Below are positions 1-54,180 of a stretch of DNA of 64,000 nucleotides, piece by piece. The DNA is from Octopus vulgaris (lineage: Eukaryota). Each line of letters opens with the position of its first letter. Within the stretch, counting starts at the first letter, position 1. The DNA lies in the NCBI GenBank assembly GCA_951406725.2, contig OX597814.1:154070001-154134000 (forward strand), in the 5' to 3' direction. The notes under the pieces are model-generated. The model worked only from the letters and a program-made list of their open reading frames with translations. It searched no databases and had not been told where the DNA came from. The translations under genes were made by a program, and so were the position numbers.

Positions 1-501
1 TGTGTGTGTATATTTTAATATAATCGGGGTAAAAAAACCTTGTAGTGTGCTTTCCAAAGCTCTTCCTCTGAAATTCGCTACCAAATGCCATCATACAGTA
101 GGACTTTCTTCTCACAGGACATACACATTGAGAGCCTTAAATATCCATACAGCTTATACAAAAATATTAACAGAAAATGGATTGAATATGCTTTATTACC
201 CCCCCACTTCTAGTGTTTCAATACATCACTAACAGCTGTTCATTACTAAGTATCAAATATGTTATAAATAACACATTGTTCTAATTGTTATTATTCAGCA
301 ATACCAGCAGATGCATTCATAACAGGATTCTTTTTAGTTCCAGAAAATCTCTGTTAAATCAGTCTTTTCTTTCACTCATTATATATCCACACCATTTTCT
401 TTTTTTAGCAATCTAGACAAAAACAAACAGAAAAAAATATCAAAAATAAACATCATACTCATTGAAACATAAACCGCAAGCATATCATTCTTGGCTGGAA
501 T

Positions 502-596
502 TTTATATATATATATATACATACATACATACATACATACATACATACATACATACATACATACATACATACATACATACATACATACATACATAC

Positions 597-649
<53 letters not shown>

Positions 650-664
650 CATATATATATATAT
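502..664. repeat. Compound microsatellite (TA)n-(TACA)n-(CA)n-(TA)n
   Basis: Seen directly. It explains ORFs 379..636 and 462..713. Confidence 0.97.
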
Positions 665-683
665 TAGGAAGTTAAAAGTTATG

Positions 684-744
684 GCCAGCGACCATTGGTT
701 TCACAACCTATAACATGCCTAGCAACTCATCAGACTCAAATGGC
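684..744 (-). ncRNA. Type I hammerhead ribozyme motif (Penelope-like), weak stem II
   Basis: Minus strand reads gagt CUGAUGA guugcuag..auagguugu GAAA CCAAUGG UC|gcug. Core intact, near-palindromic stem III, GUC site; stems I and II eroded. Confidence 0.6.
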
Positions 745-1089
745 TGAAGGCACATAGCCTCTCTAGAAACTGGAAGAAGAAATATGTAATGAGTAGTTGG
801 TTTTGTGAACAAAAAATATTTGTTCATGCTGCAGGTGAGAGAAGGTTAGCAGGACAGGGTTAGTGGGATGGGATTAATGGGACAGGAGTAGCAGGACAGG
901 ATTAGTGGTATGGGGTTATCCCCCTTACATGGTGAATTTGGAGGAGCTCTGGTAGGACTATCCAACGAATGGGGAATCCCAAGTCTGAAGCAGGAAACCT
1001 TTTAGATGTGGGCATTGATTGAATACTTCATTCCTGGAGTTTGAAAAGGTTCCCAGGTCAAGTGATTTTTGTAGAATTCGTGACCTTTT

Positions 1090-1123
<34 letters not shown>

Positions 1124-1125
<2 letters not shown>

Positions 1126-1729
1126 ATTTATATATAGAGGGCATTATTATACATACATGCCACACGCTAAGAGGGACATTAGTCATTTCTACCAAAAATT
1201 TTACTAATCCTACCCAAATGCAATTTTTCAAAGCAAGACATTTAAAAAAATGAATTTAGTCTTGTATTACCTGTGATTTCGTACTTACGTACTCATCAGC
1301 AAGACTGGTTCTGAACGCATCATAGATAAACGACCTGTCTCGTCGAAGCCAAACAGCTAACTGTTCAACCCCAACAAAGCACATGGGGAAGTTTACATAT
1401 AATACATCCGGTAAATGGCAGGCTTCTTCGAATTGCATTTCAGGTAGGAAAAGTTTTTTCGGAATAAAATTAATTAACAATTAAGGATAACTTCTTAATA
1501 AGGAATCTTAACAAGAAAATTAGTAAAATTAGTAAAATTTTTGGTAGAAATGACTAATGTCCCTCTTAGCGTGTGGCATGTATGTATAATAATGCCCTCT
1601 ATATATAAATTAATATGTTCAATAAGAAAGAATTATTTTCGAAATTTTTCTCTTATGAGGTTTTTCACGCTATCTACCTGATAATTTCTTGTTAAGATTC
1701 ATTATTAAGAAGTTATCCTTAATTGTTAA
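1124..1729. mobile_element. Non-autonomous Penelope-like/retrozyme-like fragment with interleaved inverted repeats
   Basis: Inverted repeat A at 1124-1208 and 1528-1612 (85 bp, essentially perfect). Inverted repeat B at 1474-1522 and 1682-1729. Internal HHR; (TA)n on both sides. Confidence 0.7.
1258..1306 (-). ncRNA. Type I hammerhead ribozyme, intact catalytic core
   Basis: Minus strand reads AGUCUUG CUGAUGA GUAC-GUAA-GUAC GAAA UCACAGGUAAUA|CAAGACU. Perfect 7-bp stem I, 4-bp stem II with GNRA loop, all core bases, AUA cleavage triplet. Confidence 0.9.
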
Positions 1730-1731
1730 AG

Positions 1732-1778
<47 letters not shown>

Positions 1779-2028
1779 TAAAGAGAGAGAGAGAGAGAGA
1801 GAGAGAGTAAACAAATGAGATCCACAAATGCTCACTATAGAAGACACTTAGTAGTGCTCAAATGATTTGAACTTACTCCAAAATCTTTACCAAGGACCAA
1901 GTCCATGGGGTTAAAGAGAAGCTAAAAGAGTAATCCAAGTGAGCAAATATGGAGATAATGATGCAAATAAACAAATAAAACTGTATGGGTTAGATATTGA
2001 AAAAAATACACATAAAAATCTATCTGCT

Positions 2029-2155
2029 TGCTCTGAAGATGGAGGCTGGGTTTATCCAATGTTTATATGCTTCCATTACTGATTGCATATATTTCTGAAC
2101 TACATCTGTCAACACCATGAAGTAACTTCAAGCCCCCAGAAACAGCTGTCAGACC
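2029..2155 (+). ncRNA. Type I hammerhead motif with long stem II insertion
   Basis: CUGAAGA (2033-2039), UGGAGGCU...AGCCCCCA stem II around an ~80-nt loop, GAAA (2139-2142), palindromic CAGCUG, GUC site. Stem I is weak. Confidence 0.65.
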
Positions 2156-2834
2156 TTTAACACCATACCTTTTCCCCTTTAATTTTCTGTATCTTTGTAC
2201 TTTGTGTAAGTTTGCCCTGTAAATATATAAATATTCATATATTTATAATTGAATATCCATCGACTGAAAGTTTTCAGTCTTTGCTCTTTCTCTATTTTCA
2301 TGTATACACATATGTGTATATTTTGTATATCAAAAATTTTATTTGTTTATTTGCACCATTATCTTTCTCTCCCTCTCTCTCTCTCTCTCTCCCTATATAT
2401 ATATATATATATGCATATACATACATATATATATATTTGATTCATTCTCAGTCGAAAGACACCTGTTGTTATATTCTTGTTGTTTGTATTTGTAATTGAG
2501 TACCATGTGCTCCATTTTTTGTCTTTGATGCTGAACACATTCGCTTATTTTCTTACAAAAAGGTCTAATACTCTTAGCTTAGACGTTTTTGGAGGCAACC
2601 ATATCGAACTGTCTCAAGTGTAACTGCCTGAAACAGTAAGAACTTCTGGTATACTTGAATGAGGAAAGAAGGCCCATCTTTCTTTGCTTGTTCTTCTAAT
2701 TGTTGTTTCTCCTTTGTATCATCTATCTGTCCAAATGTTTTATTGTCCTCTATTGCGCTTTTGTTCCATTTCATATATATACATACATGCATATATACAT
2801 ATATATATGAATATATATAAATATGTATATATAC

Positions 2835-2870
<36 letters not shown>

Positions 2871-2874
<4 letters not shown>

Positions 2875-3160
2875 AGAAAAAGAAAATGGAGATTGGGAAG
2901 TTAATAATTGCTTATTATTAACAACAAATTAATCATCATCCCCTACAGCTGTTTCAGTTAATACTCAGTAAATATTAATTAAATATTAAATTCATATGCC
3001 CTGAGCATAATATCTTCAGAAGGAAAAAATATATGCTCAGGGCATATGAATTTAATATTTAATTAATTCATTGAGTATTAATTGAAACAGCTGTAAGGAA
3101 TGATGATTGATTTGTTGTTAATAATAAACAACATCCCAATCTCCATTTTCTTTTTCTTCT
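2871..3160. mobile_element. Fold-back (inverted pLTR-like) Penelope-type fragment
   Basis: ~140-bp imperfect inverted arms around a ~20-bp centre at ~3010-3032. Contains an HHR and follows (TA)n. Confidence 0.7.
2939..3025 (-). ncRNA. Type I hammerhead ribozyme with extended AU-rich stem II
   Basis: Minus strand reads UUCCUU CUGAAGA ..AUGCUCAG...CUGAGUAU.. GAAA CAGCUG UA|GGGGA. Palindromic stem III and GUA site. The plus-strand mirror copy (3033-3100) lacks CUGANGA. Confidence 0.75.
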
Positions 3161-3601
3161 TTTATATGAATATAAACTATATGGTTTTATATATATATAC
3201 CTATCATTCTAAGGAAATTAATTCCCCCAAAATACTAGGTATTGAACCAGTATTTCCTTGGATGAAACCATCCCTTTATGAGGTTAACACAACCTCTAAT
3301 TGAATTCATATATATATATATATATATATATAATAGAAGAGTAAAATTTATTAATTAAATTAATTAATTAATCAATTAATTAACAATTTTACCAAGTAGA
3401 TCAGTAAGTTAAAATAACCTTTATAGGTAAAATTATTTATATAATTATAATTAGGGTTCAGCTAACTGCTTCCCCACATACCGAAATTAGAAATAGGAGT
3501 TAAAAAATTCCCTTTCTGCTACTATAAGAATCTCCATGACAATAAACATACTTTTTTATGAAGGCAAAGAGAAAAACAACGAATCAACACGACTAGGATT
3601 A

Positions 3602-3664
3602 ATTATATGCATGTTTCGAGATTAAAGTAATTTAAATTTTATTTACTTCTCTCTTCAGTATAAT
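3602..3664 (-). ncRNA. Type I hammerhead motif with U16.1>C change
   Basis: Minus strand reads AUUAUA CUGAAGA GAGA..UCUC GAAA CAUG CA|UAUAAU. Stems I and II pair, but the triplet is GCA rather than GUH. Confidence 0.65.
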
Positions 3665-3699
3665 ATTTCCAATTTTTATAAAACTTTCAAATTTTATAA

Positions 3700-4050
3700 A
3701 AATGTCTGTTTTGGCTTAGTTTCCATGACTGGATGCCCTTCCTAATGCCAACCATTTGACAGAGCATACTGGGTGCCTTTACACAGCACTGGCATGGGTG
3801 AGTTTACGTGGCACCTGTACAAGTGCTTTTTATATGGCACCAGCACCCATGAGCCCACAAAATTAGGAACGCTCAGCTGGAAGGGGATGCAGGGGCATCC
3901 CTGTATATTAGAACAACTATATTCTTGTTTAGCTTGATTTGTTTTCTCATGCACAGCAGCAAACTGTCAAGAGTTGCAGTCCCTTGTTATCCACTCTGTG
4001 AGAGGCCCAACATCTGAAGATCCTTTCTCACCACTTCATCCCAGGTTTTA
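3700..4050 (-). mobile_element. Diverged RTE 3' end/RTE-tail SINE (family A)
   Basis: ctggatgcccttcctaatgccaacca motif shared with the tail at 15330-15592. Confidence 0.7.
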
Positions 4051-4595
4051 TTCTCTCTATAATTAGAGATTGGCACCTGCACTTATAGAGGGAAAGCTGC
4101 AAGTTTTTATTGTGAATCTAACATGAAAATTATAAGAAGGGTTCACAATGAACTTAATTCCTACTCTGAGTTGTCTGTACAAGGAGCAAGGAAATGAATC
4201 GCCATAAACATCATACAATTTTAGATAAGTTCTTCAGTGTTCGAGTAAATATTGATGATGATGAACTCTAAGATAGTAGGTAATGGTCCTCATTCTCCTA
4301 GTAACTCTCATTTTTCACCCTCACACAGTAGTTATAATCTTTTGTGGTAAGGATGTATCCTATTACCATATTACAATTCTTATTTGTTTCCTTATGAATT
4401 TCTCTTCAAATGTTTTTGTGTATAAATATTATACTATATATATATTTAGAAAATATTTTCATATATAAAAGTGACCGTGTTGCTTGCTTGCTTTGTCTTT
4501 TTGCTGCTTTCTTTTAAAAAAATTGGAATGGATTACTTCTGTAACGTGGAGATTTCTCTGAGTGCACGTGCACACACACACACACAAAACTGAGA

Positions 4596-4652
4596 CTCGT
4601 GACTCAAGTTTCGGTTTCAATAAAAGACAAACATATCCTCTTCAGTATGTAT
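4596..4652 (-). ncRNA. Degenerate hammerhead core
   Basis: Minus strand reads CUGAAGA GG...CC GAAA CUUGAG UC. Stem I does not pair. Confidence 0.4.
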
Positions 4653-5619
4653 TGATCACTTCTCTCTCATCAGATAAATAGCAAAGTATTTATATATCTA
4701 CGTGTGCGTGTGTGTATGTATATATGTATAAATATGTATATATGTGTATATATATGTAATAGATGATATTAATTAGTAAACAATAATATGGGAAGACTAT
4801 AGTCAATACACAGTAGGATAGAATGTAATCTGTAAAGATTGGTTCTTCATTGATTGCCATTATGTAAAGATGAAAGAACAGTGATTGAAGTTGTGAAGAA
4901 AATATTTATTTCCCGTTACATTGAATATAATACCTTGCTTTGACAGGCAGATGATAAAATCTTAGAGTATGCGAAATAAAAAAGTTAATTTTGGCCTGTG
5001 TGTTCCTATTGTAGTAGTAAACCATAGAGAGATATGGTAATGTGCACAGAAGACAAAGTGAGTTAGTAAAAGTGAGAAAGTTTGGGAAGTTGGGTCTCAT
5101 TGCTGCTGACAGTAAATTTCATTTCTCCATTTGACCATTGTCTTTAGTAGCTGCCTTGCTTTGGATCATGATTCTAGCATTCTGCTCCCTTACTGATGGT
5201 AGCTGTCTCTGACTTGAGTTTGTCATTCATTAACTAACTGATTGAGTTGTCACGAGCCGAGCCGACTAACTCAGTTATCACCAAGTCACTAACTGAGTTT
5301 TGCTTGGGGTTCTTGCTTTTATAACTATCCAGAAGGACAGACTTATCGTTGAGAACAATGGATTCAGTTGGTGGTCTTGTTATCTTATTTCTAGCTTTTG
5401 GTAAAATAGAAGAGGTTAGAAAGGTCAAGTGATGATGACATTATTTCGGCCTAGCAAAAGCAATCTGGCAAATGTAAAACTGCTGTCACAGGAAAATTAT
5501 TGTTTTACCGTGAGAAAAATTCTGTTGAAGTGTTAATTTAAATTTGGCTATGATGGATCGAATCCACTTCATGCTTGCAAGATTTATTAGATATATACAC
5601 ACACACACACACACATCCG

Positions 5620-5825
5620 ACAAATGCTGAAAAGTTCCTGGCTTTGGGCAAAAGAAAATACAGGAGGATCAGTTAATTATGACTTTATTCAACATATTTC
5701 CCTCTTGGATTCATACACTTATTGCAGCGGTCGTCCAGTTTTTTCTAAGCCCTGTAAAAAAAAAAAATACTCGGAAGGTAGGGCCTCCAGCCAAGCCTTT
5801 CGCGACACCCTTAAAGCCAGGAATA
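5620..5825. mobile_element. Mariner-type MITE (~215 bp family)
   Basis: TIR core tgctgaaaagttcctggcttt / aaagccaggaa. Same family at 18610, 21382, 54780 and 59144. Confidence 0.8.
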
Positions 5826-6850
5826 TACGCATATACATACGCATGTATATGCATTTATGCATGCACCCACCCACTCACGCACACACACACATACGCGCGC
5901 ACACACACACACATCATTGATGCTCCAAGCAGCATGTTTTAACTAACGTAATATATATATATGTACGATAGTGTATATTCTATACTTTCTTATACGATGA
6001 ACGTTGTCGTGTTAAAGCTGTCGCTGAATTGCGCGATCGAACACACCCGATAAACGTAAACAAATCAGTTTACAATCTCTTCCTGAACAGAAAACGGAGA
6101 TCGGCTCTTATTCTGTTTGTGGAAAGATTGTGAAGATTGATTACATTTGTCCTGTGAGGTTCATCGTCCAACGTAGCAACGGCTAGCATTTGTATTACAC
6201 AGTATATATGTTATTGTATTTGTGAGTTTATAATTTCTTTAGTAGCAGTGATATATTTCGTGTACGAACTTAAAACATTTGGTGCAGTATTGGTTGCGAT
6301 CATGATAGAAGTATACTGGTCGGGAAACAGATGTAGATAGTGCGGAAAGTAGCAATGAGAAAGATATGATCTTTATATATTGTGAGTGAGAGTAAGCGGA
6401 AAATATAAGAGAGGGTGAGAGTGTGTGAGAGTCGATGTAAATATAACATAAAGACAAGAGAAAGACTACGTTGCGAGGAAGGAATCATTTGTTACTATAT
6501 ATGAAGAGGGAGGAGGAAAGAGAGAAAGAGAACAAGTGCTGGGTGTAAGAAGGATACGAAAGACATGAGGGAGGGACAGAGGGGAATAGTGAGAGAGTAA
6601 GCGTAGGGTGTAAGAAAGATATGACAGACAAGAAAAGGGAGGGTGAGTGAGCGGTGTTTAGGCAGCAGGAGTCGTCGCTGCATAGGTTGACAAAAAGATA
6701 GAGCGATTATGAGAGATCTGAAGCAGCTAGGAAGCCATGTAGAGAAAGGGGTAAGTTTATGAGGAGTACACGAGGAGGAAGAAATTAAACATACAGACAA
6801 AGTGAGTACGATTCAATTAACAACAAAACAAAGAGTAAAGCAACGCATAC

Positions 6851-6934
6851 TTCACCAGCCCTTCCAGCGGAAGGCTTAGCGTAGTAAACCCGTGGGAGGT
6901 ACAGAAACATAGACAACATCTTGACTTTTACCAT
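6851..6934 (-). CDS. Candidate first exon of a divergent transcript (MVKVKMLSMFLYLPRVYYAKPSAGRAGE), possibly non-coding
   Basis: ATG at 6934, open for 28 codons to GAA|gtatgc. No homology recognised. Confidence 0.25.
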
Positions 6935-7052
6935 CGGAGTCAGTCGGAAACTAATTCCCGTGTCTTGTCTGTGATGTGAGAACCCTACTCTTAAAAAGTA
7001 TAAATTTGTATTTCTACCTTAGTAACGTTGCTATGAGTACTAATGTTACCCA

Positions 7053-7130
7053 ATGGGATCTCCACAACAGCAGAAACGTGTGGTCAAGAACAGAATGACG
7101 GATAATAATTTAATTGAAGTGAAAAGCAAG
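7053..7130 (+). CDS. Candidate first exon of an unidentified gene (MGSPQQQKRVVKNRMTDNNLIEVKSK)
   Basis: ATG at 7053 (second in-frame ATG at 7095), open to a consensus donor AAG|gtaagt at 7130/7131, inside the CpG island. Confidence 0.5.
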
Positions 7131-9287
7131 GTAAGTTTCTTTTTATTTTGCTCATAAATATGTATGAAATTTATTTAAAATATCTGTTGTTCTGGTCTGG
7201 AGAAAATATAAGTATAAAGTCTTGTTACCGGCCTCTTAATTTTGTAAGACAAAATTTAGAGGGAGTGTTTATGCAATTATTGCGAGGTGAGCCAGGTGCG
7301 AGTAATGTTTCTACACACCCGAAATTCTGACTACCTCCTACATAAGCACACGTTTTTCTTCTTACAATGTCATGTTCGAAGCTGTATTATGGCCCCCATC
7401 CCTTTTTTTCTCGTGTATCATTACCCTAAAATGTGTGTTACCTGAATAAATGTCGGACACTCCTTGATCATAGTAACTTTGCTTTCTTTTACCTTATGCC
7501 TACTCGTCTGTTCTCATTTCACTGCTCTGCATAAATGAAAAATCTTTCGTTAGCTTTATTTCGTCAAAACCTTTCTTTTTTTATATACGTATTGTTATAA
7601 ATTAAAATATTCGAATTTATTATCGGGATAATATTCTGTTTAAAACGTCATAATACACTTTAATTTGTCCACTCTTAACTTATTTTTTAAGATGCTGACT
7701 ATTTGTCTACCTTCGTCAACGATTACTATTATGTAGTTTATTTAATTATACGTGTTATATGCGTATCTTTTTTATGTTTTCACCCCTCTAGATTTCTTTT
7801 CGACAGGCCACCTGTGGTATGTTATATTGGCATGCGAACCGCCTTAAAATATTCCTGTTCAAATACTTGGAATAACAATGTGATTGTGTATCAACGCTAA
7901 GCTTGCTTTAAAATATCTTGTAATATTTGTCTTGAAGCTGTACAACTCCGAAATCACCGATATATATATAAACATGCATACACACGCTAAAAGTGTTAGT
8001 TGTATTGATGAGGCATTCTAATTACCCAAGATAATTATCTGTTTGAAACAGAATATTTACAAAACCACACACAAACATACTGAATATTAGTTTCACTCGA
8101 TGTAGCTGTTTGCTTAAATTTTATCTGGCAAATGAGCCAGAATTTAGAATCTAATCTATCCGCAGGGATTATGTTATCCATTGCAGATTGTTAGTGCGTG
8201 TATTTAACGGCAAAATACAAGACTTGTTACGACTTAACATGAAAGTATTTAGCTGAAGTACTAGAAGTGTTAGCTTATTATTTAATTACAGATTAAATTT
8301 ATCTGTTTTATTTTAGATATCTCTAACTTTTTTAATTGCTTCTTTTGTGTAAGAATTCTAATTTTGTATGTACGATTTTTCTAACTTTTCTAATGTTTAC
8401 TTGCACATCACCTAACATGAGGCACCTTGATAATTTATTTACCGTTGAAAGTGTATTATTATATAGCTTAGTGGCACTTAATGTAGTATGGATGTTGTAA
8501 TTAGATAATTAACCTAACATAATGAAGGCTCTTATATTTAACAAATTACACAGCAATGCTTTTGTTTCTTGGTAACGCCGTAACTACTAATTAAGATACT
8601 TATGTCATCGAGTTTAGTTACTCGGTTGATGGTAACCCGTATGGTTGTAAATTGATACCCGGTTTAAAGAATAGCGAGCTAGATTACTTCAGTAATGATA
8701 TAGGCTGAAATAAACTTGAAAAGGGCAATTTTTTTTTACTTTCCGGTCAAACTTTGAAACATAATAAATTATGAGTAACTGTACGCTGTCAGCGAACCGA
8801 GTCCTGGGTCTTGTTTTGGATTGTCGTTTTTAGCTGTTTCACTTCAGTTCTTTCGTTAATGCCCTTGGGAAAGGCATGACCGTCACGTTTTTCATTCCAC
8901 TTACTATCCAGAACAGCAATTGACTGACATACTTAGTGTATCGTGGAGGTAAATATACTTACTTAACCGAGGTATAAAGTTTATAAAAATAAAGAAAAAC
9001 CACAGTGAAGTTATTTTTGTTCTATGTAAACACTACATGTTTTATAAGACCTGAAACATTTCTATTTTTATTTAAATTGGAATAGTTATACTGCAGAAAG
9101 GTAACTAACTACAACCCACGTCGTTTAGGTGCGCAAGCACCACATTTGACGTTTGTGAAACTGTCATTTGTGAAAGCTAGTTTTCTCTTTTATTTGTACT
9201 TTTTTCTTTCTTTCTTTTTTTTTTTTTTGGTGAATTTCAAGTAAAAAGTAAACTTGTAATTTTTGAGAATTTGTTTTCCTACTTCAG

Positions 9288-9311
9288 AACTTTATCGACC
9301 TTCGTTTGAAA
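9288..9311 (+). CDS. Candidate 24-nt microexon (NFIDLRLK in phase 0)
   Basis: Acceptor ttgttttcctacttcag| and donor |gtgagt. Length divisible by 3 and open in frame with 7053-7130. Confidence 0.4.
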
Positions 9312-9516
9312 GTGAGTGCTGGTGATGGTTGTGCATATGATTTTGTGACACCTGATATTAGGTATGACTCTAAGCTACACCCCGGCAGTGGGACCATGGG
9401 GCCCTGGTTTCGGCGTTTGAGGAATGTGGAAACACCTCTTAGTCACTATTGTTCCCAGATCTACTCTGGTCCGGAGTAGTGGCACCTAGGGTCCCAGCTA
9501 TAGGTTAACTAGCAAA

Positions 9517-9598
9517 TCCTCCTGCGACTGGGGGTGGGGGCGGTGGTAGAATGCAGTTGCCGTATTCCCGGCGTGGCGTAAGAAGCTACTAAAAAGGA
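9517..9598 (+). ncRNA. Candidate pseudoknotted structured RNA resembling non-LTR retrotransposon 5' ends
   Basis: Pairings: tcct/agga, gcgactg/cagttgc, gggggt/attccc and gtggc-gtaagaa-gctac. Confidence 0.4.
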
Positions 9599-9983
9599 CG
9601 GGAGGGAAGGGGCTGGGAATACACTCCTCCTAGTAATTCAGTTTCTTTAAAAAAAAAAAAAAAGATACTTGGCCCCAACTCAGTTTCGGTATATATAGAC
9701 AAGACAATAATTAAATGTGTTCCGACTTCAATCGTTCCACCTCCTTTTTTTTTTTAAATTAGACTAGGTATATTTAATAACACTCCCCCCTTCTCTCACT
9801 CTCTCTCAGCAGTAAGAAGGCTCCGTATGTGGTGCGAAGGAGACTTTTTGGCCGCTATTCCTAGTACGTCGATTGACGACATCATAGAGGCCCTCGATGT
9901 TGGAGGTAAATGGAGACAGAGATTTAATCGCGATTGCTGATGCTAGCGATAGATCTACGTATATATAGATGATACTCACTATG

Positions 9984-10136
9984 GCAGGCATGGGCAACCA
10001 TTTTCGAGATGTGAACCACATGAGACATGGTTCAACACCTGGCGGGCCGCAATATAAAAAAAAAAAAATTGACGGTAATTTTTTGTTAGGCGTGCATGCC
10101 ATTCAGAAAGTTTTGCGGGCCGCAGTTTGCCCATGA
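9984..10136. mobile_element. hAT (Charlie-like) MITE
   Basis: Ends caggcatgggcaac / gtttgcccatg with internal gcgggccgca motifs. Partial related copy at ~53608-53680. Confidence 0.65.
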
Positions 10137-10665
10137 AAGCACTTTGCACTAATTACGATGACGGGTTTGTGTGAAGGTAGAAACTATACAGAACAATGCT
10201 CTGTGTAGAGGTAGGGTGAGCTGAGCGTTAGAATAAAGGTAATCTGAAACTCAGGGAGGAAGAAATTACGAGCTGTTTACAAAGTAGAATAGGTTAAATT
10301 GCCGAAATAGGGAGTCTGATGTTTCTGGAAGGGTTCCACTTCGTGATCTGTATATATTTAATTTATTGACATAGACCATCACCAAATTTCTCGAATTCAG
10401 GTGTTTCACTTTGATAGAAAAAAATAAGCTGTTTATGATTTGCCATACTCGTGTTGTATATCAGTGAAGCCTGGAATGTATATATCAACACAAAGGACCG
10501 GAGTAGGTCGGGAGCAAATTTAACAACTCGAGACTGCTATAGGTCCGCTATACACAAATGACAATAGCATAGTATTGGTAAAACCATGGGTACATTTTTT
10601 TCTGTCTGTAACCCCGTGAGCGACTTTGATAGACTAAAAGAAGCCCCATACATAGGTATACACGC

Positions 10666-13693: not shown

Positions 13694-15592
13694 GTAGAAA
13701 AGAAAAGGTGTAGGTAGAAACTCTATAAGATGTACCCAGTGTAAGCTATGGACACATAAGAGGTGCAGCAATGTCAAAGGTAGGCTAACTGGGAAGATAG
13801 TTTTTGTATGTGGCAGATGCTCGGGAGCATTAACCTCCGAAAATCTGCAGAAAACAACTTCCGTCACTTTCCAGGGGGAAAACTAGAAGTAGTTGATAGC
13901 TTCCGTTATCTAGGTGACCAAGTCAGTAGTGGGGGTGGGTGCGCTGAAAGTGTAACTGCTAGAATAAGAATAGCCTGGGCAAAGTTTAGGGAGCTCTTAC
14001 CTCTGCTGGTGACTAAAGGCCTCTCGCTCAGAGTAAAAGGCAGACTGTATGATGCGTGTGTACGAACAGCCATGCTACATGGCAGCGAAACATGGGCCGT
14101 GACTGCTGAGGACATGCGTAAGCTCGTGAGGAATGAAGCCAGTATGCTCCGATGGATGTGTAATGTCAGTGTACATACTCGACAGAGCGTTAGCACCTTG
14201 AGAGAAATGTTGTACCTAAGAAGCATCAGTTGTGGTGTGCAAGAGAGACGATTGCGCTGGTATGGTCATGTGGCGAGAATGGATGAAGATAGGTGTGTGA
14301 GAAAGTGCCAATCCCTAGCAGTTGAGGGAACCCGTGGAAGAGGTAGACCCAGGAAAACCTGGGACGAGGTGGTGAAGCACGACCTTCGAACTTTAGGCCT
14401 CACTGAGGAAATGACCAGAGACCGAGACCTTTGGAAATATTCTGTACGTGAGAAGACCAGGCAGGACAAGTGAGCCCAGCCCACTTATGAATGCCTTTCC
14501 TCCCTTGGACACAAAGACCGGTTGAGGCAAGCGAAGTCGATATAGAACCTCATCCGACGACAGACACCCATGCCAACCCCCCATGCTTGCGAAGACATGT
14601 TGGGGCAAGCGAAATCGGAATCGAAACCGAATTGAACCAGCCAGGATCCCTGGCCTGGTGGTACGTAAAAAGCACTATCCGACTCGTGGCCGTGGCACGT
14701 AAAATACTCCAATGCGACCGTACGACAGGCACCCATGCCAACCCCCTTTGCTTGTGAAGACATGTTGGGGCAAGCGAAATCGAAATCGAATTGAACCAGC
14801 CAGGATCCCTGGTCTGATGGTACGTAAAAAGCACTATCCGACTCGTGGCCGTGGCACGTAAAATACTCCAATGCGACCGTACGACAGGCACCCATGCCAA
14901 CCCCCTTTGCTTGTGAAGACATGTTGGGGCAAGCGAAATCGAAATCGAATTGAACCAGCCAGGATCCCTGGTCTGATGGTACGTAAAAAGCACTATCCGA
15001 CTCGTGGCCGTGGCACGTAAAATACTCCAATGCGACCGTACGACAGGCACCCATGCCAACCCCCTTTGCTTGTGAAGACATGTTGGGGCAAGCGAAATCG
15101 AAATCGAATTGAACCAGCCAGGATCCCTGGTCTGATGGTACGTAAAAAGCACTATCCGACTCGTGGCCGTGGCATGTAAAATACTCCAATGCGACCGTAC
15201 GACAGGCACCCTTGCCAACCCCCTTTGCTTGTGAAGACATGTTGGGGCAAGCGAAATCGAAATCGAATTGAACCAGCCAGGATCCCTGGTCTGGTGGTAC
15301 GTAAAAAGCACTATCCGACTCGTGGCCGATGCCAGCACCGCCTCGACTGGCTTCCGTGCCGGTGGCACATAAAATACACCAATCTGACCGTGGCCGTTGC
15401 CAGCCCCGCCTGGCACCTGTGCAGGTGGCACGTAAAAAGCACCCACTACACTCACGGAGTGGTTGGCGTTAGGAAGGGCATCCAGCTGTAGAAACATTGC
15501 CAAATTTAGACTGGAGCCTGGTGCAGCCTTCTGGCTTCCCAGAACCCCGGTCGAACCGTCCAACCCATGCTAGCATGGAGAACGGACGTTAA
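13692..15592 (+). mobile_element. Young 5'-truncated RTE-clade LINE: PHD-like finger, RT thumb/C-terminus and long 3' UTR
   Basis: LEVVDSFRYLG..RIRIAWAKF..HGSETW..RRLRWYGHVARM..RGRGRPRKTW, stop at 14473. CpGs retained; 3' tail ends aacggacgttaaa. Confidence 0.92.
14555..15329 (+). repeat. Tandem array of a 159-bp unit (~4.8 copies) in the LINE 3' UTR
   Basis: catgttggggcaagcg recurs at 14596, 14761, 14920, 15079 and 15238. Copies are near identical. Confidence 0.95.
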
Positions 15593-31671: not shown

Positions 31672-32329
31672 GATTACTCTGTTAATGCAAGTTATTTAAT
31701 TTGCATTAGTCACCTCTCTTCCGCACACTATTGCAACCTCCAATACTTTTAATGTGGTCTGCACATTTACTCCGAATCAAGACCATTAATATCTCCTGCT
31801 GTAGGACCCTATTCAACAACACTTAAACTCACATGCTACACATCTTAATAAAACATGCTCATTGATATATTTCCTTAACCTGAAAAAAATGCAGCTCAGA
31901 TTATCTTGCATGATACAAAAGCTATGTGTAATATCCTTTTTATAAAGAAAATATTTCATCATGAATGCCCTGAATGTTTTAAATATATATAGAAATTATT
32001 TCCTGTTCAAGCAATTTTTCCCTGGTTCAGTGTAGTGTATATCTGTTAAGGCAAAGTGAGTTAACTACTTCTATGTCTGTCAATGAATATGTACTGATAT
32101 TTGTCACTCTTAACTGGACTCATAGCTACTGATATTAAACAAGTTAGGACTCCTTCCTTTCTGCAAGGTAATCAATATGATTGGTTCATCAATTTTAATT
32201 TTATTCTTTACATTTAAAATATTTTTCTTTATCATTACAAAATTAAACAGATTCAACAACTGAATTTCTTTTTAATAAATTAGATGAATATGAAATAAAT
32301 TTTAATGAAATATCTGGGTAGGATTTTTT

Positions 32330-35071
32330 GAAACATGGGCGCATTCCTTACTCTGTGATGGGGTTTTCAACATCACGGGGTACAACCTCTTCCGTAAGGA
32401 CCGCACTAACCGCCGTGGTGGTGGTGTGATGGTCTACGTTCGTTCAAATTTTTTGGTAATTCCTTGTGCCGATTTGAACGAATCACAAGAAGAAGTTTTT
32501 TTCTGTGACGTACGTATGACCATGTCAACACTCCTGCTTGGCGTTGTTTATCGTCCCCCAAATTACCATCAGGACACACAGCTTTGCAACATCCTCCGAG
32601 CTGCAGCCAGGAAAACAGCCACTTATGTGTTTATTGCAGGCGATTTCAATCATCCTGAGATCGATTGGGAAACCTTCCGTTGGCCACAGAGTGCAAACGA
32701 TTTTGTTGAGCTTGTGCTGGACTCAAACTGGTCACAAGTAGTCACCTCTCCAACAAGAGGCGACAACACCTTGGACCTGCTCTTCACCACAACTCCTGAA
32801 GCGGTTATCAATTGCACTACGGAGGAACCTCTAGGTGACTCTGATCATGCTATGATCATCGCCAATCTGGCTCTTGCGGGCAACCAACACCTGAACCATC
32901 TCCAATCTGCTTCCTTCGATTGGAAGAGAGCAGATTGGAACCTGTACCACACTGAACTACAGCACCCAAATTGGCGTGAATTCTACAACTCTGGAGATGT
33001 GAATACTATACTCCAGAGTATCCTGGACTCAATATGGGCAGCATGTGCAGCATCAGTGCCACGTAAACAAAAAAAGAAGAACCGCCCCAAAAGGGCAATT
33101 TGGGAAACTTCAGCAGTCCGACTTGCCAGGAAGGAACGTCGGACTGCTGAACAGGAATACAAGTTGCATAAATCAGACACCAACAGGAAGAAGCGGAATA
33201 AATCCTCCAACCATCTCAAGCAAGTGACAAAAAATGCAGTGCTTGAATTTGAACAGTGCATAGCAGCCAATCCTGACAGCAAGGTTTTCTGGAAATATGT
33301 GCATTCAAAGCAGAGACCTCACTCTCCAGTGGGCCCTCTTCGCAACCCTCACACGAACCAGATCACTGACGACCCCAAGGAATGCGCAGAACTCATTGCC
33401 GAGTGCTATGCAAACATATTCACTGTCGAAAGTCAAAATGTACCATCTTCACCATCACTAACAGCAAACTCCATAACAACTATGGAATTTACACCTGCAA
33501 TGCTGCGACGTCACCTTCAAAATAAGCGCAACTATGCCTCCCCTGGTCTCGATGGAGTTACATACCTGCTTCTCAAACGTGGCAGGCACTTCCTTTTACA
33601 CCAGCTTTCTATTTTCTTCCAGTACTGTCTCAACAATGGTGCTACTCCGGAGCAGTGGAAAACTGCCAGTGTCATTCCTCTGTTCAAAAAGGGTGACCGC
33701 ACATCACCTGTCAACTATCGCCCAGTCAGTCTCACTAGCTGTATTGCAAAACTGATGGAATCGTGTGTCAGAGAAACACTCTGGAACTTCTGGAGCTCTC
33801 ACAGTCTCATCCGACCCTCACAATATGGATTTGTCCCTAACTCCAGCTGCAGTGACCAGCTTGTCGAGTTCCTTGAGGACATTACTCAGATCACTGACAG
33901 TGGCTCATGGGTGGATGTTGTCTACCTTGACTTTGCTAAGGCTTTCAACTCTGTGCCACACAAAAGGCTTATGGTGAAACTCTCTGCAATGGGTGTGGGG
34001 GATGACCTTTTTAACTGGTTGAAATCCTTCATCCTCAGCCGAAAGGAGGTAGTCACAGTTCTAGGACAGCACTCTACACCATATGAGATGTCATCGGGTG
34101 TACCACAGGGATCTGTCCTTGGTCCCCTCCTGTTTGTGGCATACATTAATGACATAGATGCCAATTTAAAGAATGCCACAGTATTGAAATATGCAGACGA
34201 CATCAAGCTGTACCTTGAAATCAAGAGGACTGATCCTGATGTCTACAACTCTTTCCTGCAATCAGACCTAGACACAATGCAGCAATGGATCACAGACTGG
34301 CAACTGAAACTGGCTGTGGACAAGTGTACCACCATGCATTTTGGGAGAAAAACCCTGCGTCCACATACTCCCTCCACAACACTGATATCAAGAAATCCTC
34401 TTGCGAGCGTGACCTAGGCATCACTGTCAGCAGTGATTTGCGTTGGACAAAGCATATCTCTAAAATTGTCAAGAAGGCCGAGGGTGTCTTGGCATCACTC
34501 AGTAAGACTTTTGTTAGCCGCTCTCCAGCCATCTATTTAAAACTGTATACAGCTATGGTACGACCACACTTGGAATTCGCATCATCAGTTTGGAATCCCT
34601 ATCTTGCTCAGAACATTGACCTCCTGGAATTTGTCCAGAGACGTGCAACCAAACGCATACCCTCCATCAGACACCTACCATATTCTGAGCGCCTTGTTTC
34701 CCTGGGCATGGATTCACTGAAGCTCCGGCATCTAGCGACGGACTTGGTAAACACCCACAAGGTTATCAACCACCTCACCAACAACAACACTGAACACCTT
34801 TTTGATCTCCATGTGTCTAACACACGTGGACATGCCTACAAAGTCAGAAAACAGCACAGCTCCCATGACTTTCGGAAACATTTTTTCACGCTCAGGGTTG
34901 CTGAAGCGTGGAATAAACTGCCTGCATCAGTTGTTGACTGCCATGACACTGCATCCTTTAAGGCCCTCATGCTTCACGAAATCCGTCGAAACTACACCTG
35001 ATTATATATACACTTTAGATGAGTTGTAGTGCACCTGAGCACTGTACACAATTATTATTATTATTATTATA
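32330..35071 (+). mobile_element. 5'-truncated CR1/L2-group LINE: APE endonuclease plus reverse transcriptase, one frameshift
   Basis: In frame from ETW (32330): YRPP, GDFN, LDL, SDH, then NYRPVSLTS, YLDFAKAF, GVPQGSVLGP, YADD. Continues in ORF 34285..35001 (ERDLG..TRGH..AWNKLP). Short 3' UTR and (ATT)n tail. Confidence 0.96.
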
Positions 35072-37391: not shown

Positions 37392-37532
37392 TTAAGAGAT
37401 GAAGAATTATGTACATTATTTATATTTGACAGATATTTGTCCTCATCTTCTTTGTTGATATACCCTCCAGCCTTCATCAGGTGTCTTGGGGAAATTTCGA
37501 ACCTGGGTTCTCATTCCTAAGGTATTTTTTGA

Positions 37533-37573
<41 letters not shown>

Positions 37574-37826
37574 TCACTTAACCACTATGGTGTAGTGGTT
37601 AAGAGTGCAGGCTACTAACCCCAAGATTCTAAGTTCGATTCCAGGCAGTGACCTGAATAATAATAATAATGATGATATCGAAAAATACCTTAGGAATGAG
37701 AACCCAGGTTTGAAATTTCCCCAAGACACCTGATGAAGGCTGGAGGGTATATCAGCCAAAACGTTGTGTTAACAACAAAGAAGATGAGGACAAATGTCCG
37801 TTGAACGTAAATAATATAAATAATGA
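37392..37826. mobile_element. Fold-back element: tRNA-derived head, (AAT)n and hammerhead motif, duplicated in inverted orientation
   Basis: 37413-37578 mirrors 37647-37826. A box at 37588-37598, B box at 37632-37642. Confidence 0.8.
37725..37770 (+). ncRNA. Minimal type I hammerhead motif with G12>A
   Basis: GACAC CUGAUGA A GGCUG-gagggUaUaU-CAGCC [A]AAA CGUU|GUGUU. Stem I GACAC/GUGUU, stem II GGCUG/CAGCC, palindromic AACGUU. Confidence 0.75.
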
Positions 37827-45368: not shown

Positions 45369-45371
<3 letters not shown>

Positions 45372-45952
45372 TGACCGGTAAATTCCACCAGGTAATTTTC
45401 ACCATAGGTAAATTCCACCATGGTAAATTTCACCATAGGTGAAATTATTAATATTATTATCATCATAATTATTATATCATATGGGTTAGGATATTATGGA
45501 AATAAAAGAAGAATGCATAAAAAATAATATTAATGTCAGTGAATACAAAAAAAAAAAACAAGGGAGAAAATATAAATTGAGGAACAATCACACGGTGAAT
45601 TACGGGTGTGTGCTAAAATTTAATCTTTTTCTTTCTTTATCCCAAATGACATTATTTTTAAAATTTTGTGATGAGTTTTTTCATAGATTCTTGCATGATG
45701 GGAGAGCATTAAAGTGTTCCCGTCTCAATTCAAGTAGATTATAAAGATTATTTTCTGCCTCACCTTCAAACTCTCTCTCTCAAGACTTGAGAGACAGACA
45801 GATTAAATAACAGGTATTGACCCACAGTCTAGAGAAACTGACCACAATGATTATTAGTGGGAGCAGCTTATATAAGTCTGTCCATGGGTGGAATATACCA
45901 TGGTGGAATTTACTTATGGTGAAATTTATCTGGTGGAATTTACCTGGAACCT
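45369..45952. mobile_element. Foldback-type DNA element with TIRs built of 15-16-bp subrepeats
   Basis: (ggtaaattccacca)n at 45377-45436 mirrored at 45888-45946; (TA)n on both sides. Confidence 0.7.
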
Positions 45953-48637: not shown

Positions 48638-50705
48638 TTAACTCTTTTAAAATGGTTGACATAAATTTACGTACACAATGTATATGCTTTAAATTGGTCA
48701 ATGTAATTATATGCCGCCTTACTTAGAACCTGTTAGCTGAGTTAGTACTGCTCCATCTGCCAACTGATAGGTTGATTAAATGTTTCATGTAAATATTTGC
48801 AACCCCGATAGGCTGGTTCTGCCACTCCAGCTCTGTCAACTTCATCATCGTGTCCTGTTTCATCGAATTTATGGTTGTGATTTCTACCGCTCCAACTCCA
48901 TCAATTTTGTCATTGTGTCCTGTTTTGTCAAATTTATGGTCGTTGTGCGAAGCTCCACCACCTCACCAGTCATTTCTTTTGGCTTGGACAATGATTCGGA
49001 GAGTGAGTATTTTCCTAGTTCATAATCAGATGATTCCTATAGTAATGATAATATTTCGATGAATCAAAGGTACAGAAGGGCAGCAGTGAATGGCCCTGGA
49101 CAACAGAATGTTGTGTGATGAACGAGAGACAGTTCTGTCCGACGGCATGGGTTTACTGGTATGTCTGGCATAAAGGCAAACCTTGAACATGGAAGTTCGC
49201 CAATGGAAATCTTCTATGAGTTTTTGATGGATGAAATGTTCCAATATATAGCGAAAGAAACGAATGACTATACTGAAAACCATCCCCTGCATGTCAGACC
49301 TGGGCATGGCATTGATTGGTTTCCAACCATAGGGAACAAAATCAAAGTTCCTCTTGCCCTGCTGATACTGATGGACATTGTGAAGAAACTGACCCTGGTG
49401 TCATATTGGAATTGGGATCCAGCCATGTTGACACCTTTCTTTCTGGAAGTGATGCTATGTGATTGATTTTTGTGCTTCTTTGAAATCTACATTTCAACTC
49501 AGGTGAGAACCAGGATGACAGGCTGCACAAAATATGTCCTGTCATTGACGAAGTGGCTGAAAATTTCAGAACAGTGCATGTCCGCAAACAGGACATTTGT
49601 ACAGATGAGTTTGTGAAAATTCAAGCGAAGGCTCTGATTCAAACAATACAACCCTACCAAATGTACCCGCTTTGGAGTCATGATTTATAAAGTATGCCAG
49701 TCAAATGGCAGGGCCTGTGGGTACACATAGAATTACAAAGTCTATACTAGTCAGGACAGATTGGATCTTCCAGCATTTACTCTGGTGTCAACTGATATTG
49801 ATTGTGTTGTTGCTGAATGAAAACTTGTTTGACAAAGGCTACAATATTTATATGGACAACTGGTTTTCCAGTCCAGACCCTTCCTACTGCTGCAGGCGAG
49901 GAGAACTAATACCTGTGGGACTGTGAGGATGCACAGGAAAAACATGTTGCCTGATCTTCACAAGATAAAACTTTGAAAGAGGGGAAACAGCGTACTGATG
50001 CACCGACATAGGCATTCTCGCTCTAGTGTGGTGTGACAAAAAAAAAAATTCCTGCATGTTATCCACAATGCATTCTGCAAGCATGAAGGACACTAGGAAA
50101 CAAGATGCAGGCAGTAAGGAAACCGAGTGTAGTTATTTCATACAATGAAGTGACAGGTGAGGTTGATCACTCAGATCAGCTGGCGACAACACAAAAATCA
50201 GTGAAAAAATTTGTGAAATGGTACAAAAAAATTTTCTTGTACATAGTTGATATGTGTGTTGTGAACTCACATTTGATTTGGCAGATGCTTGGCGGTGTGG
50301 GAGATGGATTGACATTCAGGAACCAGACCTGCCAAAGTACAGAATGCATGGACATCCCCGTGCCAGATGCTCTCCTCACTGCATGGGATGTGGACATTTT
50401 CCACAACTGTTCCCCACCCCCACTGCCAAAATGACAAATGCTTTGAAGAGATGCATAATATATAAAGCAAAAGGGAAACATAAGGAAACTAGATATCATT
50501 GTTCACAATGTGATTTGTCTCTGTGTGTGGTACCCAGTTTTAAACTCTATCACAGTAAAGTCAATTTTTGAAATCATATGATTGTAAATACATGAAGTTC
50601 ATCTGACTTGTGCTGTCAAGTGATCTTATTCAGGAATAATACTGCATGAGAATCCTGCACAGGGGTATAGTTTAGATAAATAAACTACTTGCACTAAAGG
50701 GGTGA
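48638..50705 (+). mobile_element. Decayed piggyBac transposon (PGBD4-like transposase pseudogene)
   Basis: Fragments IAKETNDY, DRLHKICPVI, GYNIYMDNWFSSP, KPSVVISYN..GEVDHSDQ, KWYKKIFLY and a C-terminal Cys-rich domain RC..ETRYHCSQCDLSLCVVPSFKLYH. Many stops and frameshifts; ends uncertain. Confidence 0.9.
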
Positions 50706-53394: not shown

Positions 53395-53909
53395 CTGGAT
53401 GAAAGGAAGCAAATTCAATATTCATAAAGTGAGGCAAAACTAAATACTGTTTCACATCTAAACAATTGTTACAGAAACTAGCACTCTGTCAGTAAACTTT
53501 AGTATAATCAATGGCTTATTATTTCTGCTATTTCCCCCTATTCAACTTTGTTAACTAAGTCTGGAACTAAAACAAAATGTTTAGCCAATTTTAGCAAGCC
53601 TCTAACCCAAGCATGGGCGATGTTTTTCAAGAAATAGACCACATGAGACATGGTGCATCATCAGGCAGTATGCTACTAAAAAAATTCAAGTTAAGTTTCC
53701 ATTGGCATACCATTCAGAAAGTTCTATGGTTCAAAGTTTGTCCATAACTGCTACAGCAGATTGGGTCAATGTCAGTGTCATTGAATGTTTCCTTGCTCTC
53801 AAAACTATATTCTCCAGAAGTTTGAAATTTGCACTGCAAACACAAATGAAACACTCTTTAATTTTCCAGTGTTGTAATTGCTTACAGAAAGGAGTTTATC
53901 TATTTACAA

Positions 53910-54180
53910 ATATTCTGTTGTGTCTGGGGAGAGTCATTTTCTTTTTGTGCCTTATAATTTAACACACTCACCGGTAAAATTTCCACTTATTTCTTATTTT
54001 TATTCCTTATTTTTATTTTCCTAAAATAGTCTTGAGAGTCAAGACTATTAAAAAGGTTGCAAGATGCAACAAAAATTTTAAGAAAATAAAAATAAGAAAT
54101 AAGTAGAAATTTTACCGGTGAGTGTGTTAAATTATAAGGCACAAAAAGAAAATGACTCTCCCCAGACACAACAGAATATG
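53910..54180. mobile_element. Fold-back Penelope-type fragment with decayed hammerhead
   Basis: 53910-54028 mirrors 54073-54179. Centre has the hairpin aatagtcttga/tcaagactatt and a gttgc-aagat-gcaac stem between eroded core motifs. Confidence 0.65.

What the first reader, a model, noticed from the sequence alone, without database searches (positions are those of the whole stretch)
225..4652. Cluster of seven distinct hammerhead ribozyme motifs in 4.4 kb beside (TA)n microsatellites
Seen: CUGANGA-stem II-GAAA-short, often palindromic stem III-UH motifs at 684-744(-), 1258-1306(-), 2029-2155(+), 2939-3025(-), 3602-3664(-) and 4596-4652(-), plus a decayed one at ~225-315(-). Their stems are unrelated, most lie in or near AT-rich segments bounded by (TA)n, and two carry inverted duplications. 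Established: minimal type I HHRs with palindromic stem III mark Penelope-like element pseudo-LTRs and retrozymes, and some Penelope clades insert at microsatellites. Inference: several non-coding ribozyme retroelement families have repeatedly hit this locus, and they are invisible to ORF-based annotation.
Basis: partly seen in the sequence, partly recalled or inferred. Interest (0 to 1): 0.8.

Follow-up and report, generated by a model that had tools for sequence, protein, structure and literature searches.

The report
Penelope retroelement ribozyme pile-up at microsatellites
Six mostly decayed hammerhead (self-cutting RNA) motifs lie between TA repeats in 4 kb of animal DNA, one of them just behind the likely broken end of a Penelope-type jumping gene, so this is likely a pile of separate insertions of a known kind of retroelement and not a new system.

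Summary
Mostly confirmed, and explained by known biology. Six of the seven motifs have both hammerhead core boxes. As a group they far exceed chance (5 hits at score ≥8 against 0.024 per shuffle, maximum 1 in 1000). Singly, only 1265-1299 is strong (covariance model E 5e-5). The 225-315 motif has two core defects and no helix I.

New here: 225 nt upstream of the 690-733 motif, on the same strand, a reading frame ends like the endonuclease of Hydra-clade Penelope-like elements (PLEs). It ranked 1 of 2145 ORFs, E 0.0045; an earlier profile gave E 0.58. It has 16 of 35 identities to the published octopus Hydra-1_Obim end. That clade is published as hammerhead-bearing and (TA)n-targeting.

The units share no clear sequence, and three have inverted arms of unequal divergence. 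The best reading is repeated, independent, 5'-truncated PLE insertions into one TA-rich spot (0.75). Copy number, expression and cleavage could not be tested. One young unit (1124-1732) could be a 466-nt retrozyme monomer (about 0.25). Known kind, modest interest.

The parts
665..1089 (-). Unit 1: likely 5'-truncated 3' end of a Hydra-clade PLE (end of ORF, 3' UTR with a 14-nt tandem repeat at 846-905, hammerhead, 25-nt tail), between (TA)n/(CA)n tracts
958..1089 (-). 43 open codons plus stop (958-960) with the Hydra-type N-x-R-x-E-x4-C-x-H end of the GIY-YIG domain
   Evidence: rank 1 of 2145 ORFs, E 0.0045; rank 2, E 0.58 with an earlier profile; 16 of 35 identities without gaps to Hydra-1_Obim as printed in PMC8557442 Fig. 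S7 (counted by eye)
690..733 (-). Hammerhead 1, decayed: helix III ACCAAUGGU identical to that of Hydra-1_Obim, helix I 3 bp, helix II poor next to the core
   Evidence: covariance model E 8.4
1124..1732 (.). Unit 2: young head-to-head pair. Minus copy reads C-B-A (1518 to 1124), plus copy reads A-D-C (1528 to 1729); arms 85/85 and 44/45 identical; the ring A-D-C-B is 466 nt
1265..1299 (-). Hammerhead 2, the best preserved: helix I 7 bp, helix II GUAC-GUAA-GUAC, one mismatch in helix III
   Evidence: E 4.6e-5; z -2.4; 21 of 23 nt identical to Hydra-type hammerheads in fetched loci, the two differences forming one compensatory pair
1808..2372 (+). Unit 3: older unit with an inverted repeat (1953-2014 / 2311-2364, 49 of 53 aligned columns, with gaps); ends approximate
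2033..2150 (+). Hammerhead 3: 97-nt helix II/loop 2, palindromic helix III, helix I only 2 bp
   Evidence: not reported by the covariance model
2872..3160 (.). Unit 4: head-to-head pair. The minus arm holds a whole hammerhead; the plus arm starts inside helix II and holds only GAAA, helix III and the cleavage triplet (3084-3095). Arms 126 of 135 aligned columns, with gaps
2944..3019 (-). Hammerhead 4: helix I 5 bp, long AU-rich helix II, palindromic helix III
   Evidence: E 1
3333..3703 (-). Unit 5 with hammerhead 5 (3604-3658): helix II 4 bp plus extension; helix III and helix I cannot both be in register, so likely inactive; ends approximate
   Evidence: not reported by the covariance model
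3704..4045 (-). Unrelated dispersed repeat with the coding tail of an RTE-type LINE (family label recalled); its coding DNA supplies the CUGAAGA of the chance hit at 4014-4106(+)
   Evidence: many copies in the window; peptide KTWDEVV shared with the LINE ORF at 13784-14473
4589..4690 (-). Unit 6 with hammerhead 6 (4601-4645), decayed: helix III 3 of 4 palindromic, helix I absent; a second CUGAUGA at 4667-4673
   Evidence: E 0.85
231..298 (-). Doubtful seventh motif: two core defects, no helix I

Best explanation
Six hammerhead motifs of unrelated sequence lie in short units between (TA)n tracts, and they are likely the 3' ends of several Penelope-like retroelement (PLE) families that inserted one after another into the same TA-rich spot and then decayed. 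Likely mechanism: the element's GIY-YIG endonuclease nicks TA-rich DNA, its reverse transcriptase starts some tens to a few hundred bases downstream of the ribozyme and usually stops early, so only the ribozyme-bearing end is left. Priming from both target strands gives the head-to-head pairs. Each insertion splits the tract and leaves fresh (TA)n on both sides, which would feed the next insertion. Shown here: the motifs, their excess over chance, the unit layout, the unequal arm divergence, and a Hydra-type protein end in unit 1. Taken from the literature: AT-rich nicking of both strands, internal priming, (TA)n preference of the Hydra clade. Inferred: PLE origin of units 2-6, separate insertion times, the feedback. 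The ribozymes are predicted to be mostly dead; hammerhead 2 is the one that could still cleave, likely only as a dimer or with the PLE protein.
For: Group excess over shuffles. Unit 1 has the order ORF end, 225 nt, hammerhead, 25 nt, (TA)n; in 32 of 55 fetched Hydra-type motif matches with room, a hammerhead follows the stop by 29-509 nt, median 184 (many are near-identical copies). Profile of 103 Hydra-type C-termini ranks the unit 1 frame 1 of 2145, E 0.0045. Helix III of motif 1 equals that of Hydra-1_Obim. Motif 2 matches a model built from outside loci, E 4.6e-5, whose helices covary (8 of 11 pairs change on both sides, 0 of 500 shuffles as high; that is evidence for the outside family, not for the window's copies). 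Head-to-head pairs are typical of PLEs (PMC8557442; PMC4209133) and occur in locus L105. No clear similarity between units: 4 of 66 pairwise comparisons exceeded the best of 30 shuffles, each by only 3-5 points. Arm identity 100% and 98% in unit 2 against 92-93% plus gaps in units 3 and 4; CpG observed/expected 0.88 in unit 2 against 0.07 and 0.0. Octopus vulgaris has 31 recently active PLE families (PMC13282606).
Against: Only one of six motifs is significant alone, and 0 of 7 pass the strictest descriptor. My scorers let through at least one chance hit (4014-4106). The protein match is short: E 0.58 with the first C-terminal profile, no hit with a full-length profile, not in the top 8 of an ungapped matrix, no true hit in three database searches. 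No coding remnant was found for units 2-6. Only 2 of the 32 outside hammerheads had a (TA)4 within 500 nt downstream, so my own loci do not confirm the (TA)n preference. (TA)n density alone does not fully explain the clustering (6 of 7 in the region, p 0.003 given its 12 of 42 tracts; with 3 of 4, p 0.07). No other genomic copy of any unit was seen.
Confidence: 0.75

Rival explanations
1. Most units are non-autonomous, non-coding retrozyme-like elements (short circles or tandem monomers) moved by PLE enzymes; unit 2 would be a 466-nt monomer.
For: Unit 2 reads C-B-A on one strand and A-D-C on the other, which closes into a 466-nt ring with one good hammerhead. No coding remnant in units 2-6. 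Published monomers span 51-972 nt, and solo monomers are common (bioRxiv 10.64898/2026.07.22.740005).
Against: No tandem array with two hammerheads. Unit 1 keeps a likely ORF end. The A-D junction can also arise by a template jump to a second 5'-truncated copy followed by loss of its 3' part (inference). Only about 290 nt upstream of hammerhead 2 are present, within the 29-509 nt UTR range of autonomous relatives.
Confidence: 0.12
2. The 4.4 kb is one composite, multi-ribozyme mobile unit or chain (Terminon-like) that moved as a block.
For: 5 of 6 whole motifs are on the minus strand (p 0.22); the density is higher than (TA)n share alone predicts.
Against: Units differ in arm divergence and CpG decay; each is bounded by microsatellite; no telomeric repeats in the region (4 one-mismatch matches in the window against 4.3 expected, none below 11 kb); no large ORF.
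Confidence: 0.05
3. Only one or two motifs are real; the others are chance matches in AT-rich, hairpin-rich DNA.
For: Five of six are not significant alone; a chance hit scored as high as real ones.
Against: 5 hits at ≥8 against a maximum of 1 in 1000 shuffles and 1 in the other 59.3 kb; perfect 8-9-nt palindromes directly after GAAA in motifs 1, 3 and 4; motif 1 sits where a Hydra hammerhead should; motif 4 sits in a head-to-head pair.
Confidence: 0.08

Closest known systems
Hydra clade of C-terminal EN+ Penelope-like elements, especially Hydra-1_Obim of Octopus bimaculoides (Craig et al. 2021, PMC8557442)
   Same: C-terminal N-x-R-x-E-x4-C-x-H end (CPH form, as in Obim), type I hammerhead near the 3' end with the same helix III as motif 1, short tail, (TA)n flanks
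   Different: Unit 1 is a different family (16 of 35 identical residues, different UTR and helices I and II), is only about 420 nt long, and its ribozyme is decayed; RT motifs cannot be seen
Minimal type I hammerheads of metazoan PLE pseudo-LTRs (Cervera and de la Pena 2014, PMC4209133)
   Same: Intact core boxes, short palindromic helix III, variable long helix II, many unrelated sequence families per genome, mostly solo copies, pairs 100-700 nt apart on opposite strands
   Different: Six families within 4 kb; I found no report of such a cluster or of a hammerhead survey in cephalopods
Non-LTR retrozymes of animals (Cervera and de la Pena 2020, PMC7229834; Li, Clavereau and Pollet 2026 preprint)
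   Same: Short, low-GC, apparently non-coding units with a type I hammerhead; unit 2 closes into a 466-nt ring
   Different: No head-to-tail array with two or more hammerheads; no circular RNA shown
Terminons / Athena EN-minus PLEs of bdelloid rotifers (review PMC6431247)
   Same: Several hammerheads in one stretch, head-to-tail bias
   Different: No telomeric repeat after the ribozymes, no large ORFs, (TA)n flanks instead

Membership tests
Type I hammerhead ribozyme | Core boxes CUGANGA and GAAA with U-H cleavage site | tested here: met
   6 of 7 motifs; not met for 231-298
Type I hammerhead ribozyme | Helices I, II and III all formable in register | tested here: inconclusive
   Near complete in motifs 2 and 4; one helix weak or absent in 1, 3, 5, 6; 0 of 7 pass the contiguous 3/3/2 descriptor
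Type I hammerhead ribozyme | Covariation among copies of each family | not testable with these tools
   No genome held; one compensatory pair between motif 2 and outside loci
Type I hammerhead ribozyme | Self-cleavage | not testable with these tools
   Needs an in vitro assay
Hydra-clade PLE (unit 1) | CxH motif after the conserved E and N at the endonuclease C-terminus | tested here: met
   Only match in the window; 0 in 1000 shuffles of 1-4700 (pattern written after the match was seen); profile E 0.0045, E 0.58
Hydra-clade PLE (unit 1) | Hammerhead downstream of the ORF, near the 3' end | tested here: met
   225 nt after the stop, 25 nt before (TA)n; range in relatives 29-509 nt
Hydra-clade PLE (unit 1) | Insertion into (TA)n | tested here: met
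   (TA)n at 637-664 and (CA)n/(TA)n at about 1090-1124
Hydra-clade PLE (unit 1) | RWK and DKT motifs, CxCx5C linker, CxxC before the conserved E, RT phylogeny | not testable with these tools
   These parts are absent from the truncated copy; full-length profile found nothing
PLE of any clade (units 2-6) | RT and GIY-YIG ORF upstream of the hammerhead | tested here: inconclusive
   None found; only Hydra-type proteins were on hand as queries, and 5' truncation would remove it
PLE of any clade (units 2-6) | Inverted 5'-truncated copy next to the insertion | tested here: met
   Units 2 and 4 head-to-head; unit 3 has an inverted repeat with converging arms; none seen for 5 and 6
Non-LTR retrozyme | Tandem repeats with a hammerhead in at least two consecutive units | tested here: not met
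Non-LTR retrozyme | Accumulates as a small circular RNA | not testable with these tools
   No RNA data could be laid
Terminon / EN-minus telomeric PLE | Reverse-complement telomeric repeats directly after the hammerhead | tested here: not met
   (TTAGGG as the telomeric unit is recalled)
Naiad PLE | Lacks canonical hammerhead; endonuclease N-terminal | tested here: not met
   Complete motifs are present; none of five window motifs searched for matched a Naiad consensus in the paper's supplement

The most novel reading that the evidence does not exclude
The locus is a self-reinforcing landing pad that traps many unrelated PLE families, beyond what microsatellite density explains, and unit 2 is a young 466-nt circular retrozyme of a cephalopod, inserted from a circular or tandem template by priming on both strands of a (TA)n target. 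It would give a dated, single-locus record of PLE-mediated retrozyme insertion and a still-cleaving ribozyme to test.
Probability: 0.2. Interest if true: 0.5.

Novelty: new member of a known kind. Interest (0 to 1): 0.3.

Why it matters
Thousands of minimal hammerheads from truncated PLEs are already known in animal genomes, and a (TA)n-targeting, hammerhead-bearing Hydra element is published for octopus, so the basic finding is expected. What adds value: Rfam misses this whole class (10 of 10 controls), so such loci are invisible in routine annotation; the local density suggests that PLE insertions beget further insertions; and unit 2 is a young, nearly intact candidate for testing whether PLE enzymes insert short ribozyme circles.

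Tried and rejected
No whole genome is held, so copy number and consensus building were not possible. Rfam: no hammerhead in the window or in 10 control loci. Pfam on six frames of 1-9300 with X at stops: 0 families; on 132 of the window's longer ORFs: two LINE RTs and piggyBac-type pieces, no PLE domain and no host gene. A frameshift reading of unit 1 as a Neptune-like end was dropped: the open frame fits Hydra without any shift. Protein searches with the 43-residue piece: nothing, eight hits that are repeat artefacts, no atlas hit. ORF 2577-2774(-): no homologue. A CxxC-like stretch at 3525-3602(-) scored E 0.1 and 0.37 but lies downstream of motif 5; inconclusive. By-eye resemblances of 4050-4430(-) and 1890-1930(+) to PLE endonuclease ends got no support. 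The hit at 4014-4106(+) was rejected as LINE coding DNA. Pfam on locus L034 and ORF listing of L044 gave nothing; Pfam also does not recognise a full-length Hydra-type protein. Earlier scan notes held nothing on this genome or look-alikes. The paper search for 'hammerhead' and 'cephalopod' was swamped by sharks (129 papers, 15 listed).
Full report
1. Setting. The window is AT-rich animal DNA full of microsatellites and dispersed repeats. Pfam finds two LINE reverse transcriptases and piggyBac-type pieces and no host gene among 132 longer ORFs. I take it to be an octopus or close relative. That is an inference from repeat families recalled from memory and from the closeness to a published octopus element; no call named the organism. 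No genome is held.

3. Anatomy. Each motif sits in a short unit between microsatellites. (TA)n tracts are five times denser here (12 in 4.8 kb against 30 in 59.2 kb). The units show no clear similarity to each other (4 of 66 comparisons just above the best of 30 shuffles). Units 2 and 4 are head-to-head pairs, and unit 3 has a converging inverted repeat. Arm identity is 85/85 and 44/45 in unit 2, 126/135 in unit 4 and 49/53 in unit 3, the last two with gaps. CpG is kept in unit 2 and lost in units 3 and 4. These point to different ages. An unrelated LINE tail (3704-4045) interrupts the region and produces the false hit at 4014.

4. What unit 1 is. The supplement of Craig et al. 2021 lists the Hydra clade of PLEs: 26 of 27 families insert into (TA)n, nearly all carry a type I hammerhead near the 3' end, and one, Hydra-1_Obim, is from Octopus bimaculoides. 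Its helix III equals that of motif 1. On the same strand, 225 nt upstream of motif 1, 43 open codons end in a stop. They align without gaps to the Obim C-terminus with 16 identities in 35 residues (by eye), including the clade's CxH motif. For an independent test I pulled 121 Hydra-type loci from metagenome contigs and 120 related proteins. A profile of 103 C-termini ranks this frame first of 2145, E 0.0045. Results against: an earlier profile from the motif-selected loci gave rank 2, E 0.58; a full-length profile gave nothing; an ungapped matrix did not place it in the top 8; direct database searches failed. In the outside loci, 32 of 55 motif matches with room had a hammerhead 29-509 nt after the stop, which brackets unit 1, but only 2 of the 32 showed (TA)4 downstream. 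Together I put unit 1 as a Hydra-clade 3' fragment at about 0.9.

5. The other units. Motif 2 is 21 of 23 nt identical to hammerheads of the outside Hydra-type loci, and the two differences form one compensatory pair. No coding remnant was found for units 2-6, but I had only Hydra-type queries. Unit 2 reads C-B-A on the minus strand and A-D-C on the plus strand, which closes into a 466-nt ring. A circular or tandem template (retrozyme) explains this; so does a template jump between two truncated copies with later loss. One locus cannot separate them. I put the retrozyme reading of unit 2 at about 0.25. An earlier scan note (e1-7810660, not checked here) describes a similar permuted unit in TA tracts in another genome.

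6. Mechanism. In vitro, the anole PLE protein nicks AT-rich DNA on both strands, extends both, and starts reverse transcription at internal RNA sites downstream of its hammerhead; the ribozyme cleaves only with protein and is not needed for insertion (PMC11167929). Minimal PLE hammerheads cleave weakly and as dimers, occur by the thousand as solo remnants, and pair on opposite strands 100-700 nt apart (PMC4209133). PLE insertions are mostly 5'-truncated, often with an inverted copy at the 5' end (PMC8557442). Applied here (inference): several families hit one TA-rich spot, each leaving its ribozyme end and new (TA)n. With the extra motif at 37.7 kb, 6 of 7 credible hammerheads lie in the region that has 12 of 42 tracts (p 0.003); if only 3 of 4 are counted, p is 0.07. 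So there is a hint of a hotspot beyond tract density, not a proof.

7. Rivals. Retrozyme families: the defining tandem array is absent. One composite element or Terminon: no telomeric repeats, unequal ages, strand bias not significant. Chance: excluded for the group, possible for single motifs 3, 5 and 6.

8. Novelty. Hammerheads in PLE ends, their (TA)n targeting and their presence in octopus are published, and O. vulgaris has 31 recently active PLE families (PMC13282606). In five searches I found no report of a multi-family hammerhead cluster or of a cephalopod retrozyme; the library lacks most subscription papers. Verdict: new members of a known kind, interest 0.3.

9. What I saw of each paper. 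PMC8557442: passages, section 11, supplement parts 1, 2 and 58 of 59 and two searches in it. PMC4209133: parts 1-2 of 4. bioRxiv 10.64898/2026.07.22.740005: parts 1-3 of 5, supplements not seen. PMC7229834: passages. PMC11167929: parts 1-2 of 4. PMC13282606: parts 1-2 of 3; its repeat library, not seen, may already hold these families. PMC6431247: passages.

Noticed in passing
window 37444-37800: An eighth, minimal hammerhead (37730-37765, +; helix I 5 bp, helix II 6 bp, helix III ACGU, G12 changed to A) lies behind a tRNA-like head with A- and B-box-like words (about 37575-37645; read by eye, ARAGORN found no tRNA) and has an inverted, truncated partner (95 of 99 identical). It looks like a tRNA-headed, SINE-like element with a hammerhead in PLE-type head-to-head layout.
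   Followed up: partly
window 5900-10500: CpG-rich island (observed/expected 0.90 against 0.29 downstream) right beside the cluster; possibly an unmethylated promoter region; no gene identified.
   Followed up: no
window 45370-45950: Element with 16-nt tandem subrepeats in long terminal inverted repeats, set between two long (TA)n tracts; no hammerhead seen; likely a microsatellite-targeting MITE or DNA transposon.
   Followed up: no
window 53892-54197: 113-nt inverted repeat, 93% complementary, 80 nt apart; no hammerhead seen.
   Followed up: no
window 32309-35001: Nearly intact endonuclease-RT LINE ORF in two overlapping frames.
   Followed up: no
window 49122-50571: Broken piggyBac-type transposase pieces (PF13843, PF13842).
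   Followed up: no
window 14557-15328: 159-nt tandem array, 4.8 copies, 97% alike, directly behind a LINE tail; no hammerhead hit there.
   Followed up: no
L001-L121: A 36-nt motif pulls about 160 Hydra-type PLE ends from metagenome contigs, with 72 hammerhead matches in 100 loci searched; Pfam and Rfam recognise neither the protein nor the ribozyme.
   Followed up: partly
window 1808 and 2372-2390: Unit 3 is flanked on both sides by inward-facing (GA)n next to (TA)n, and its inverted arms converge instead of diverging; unexplained.
   Followed up: no
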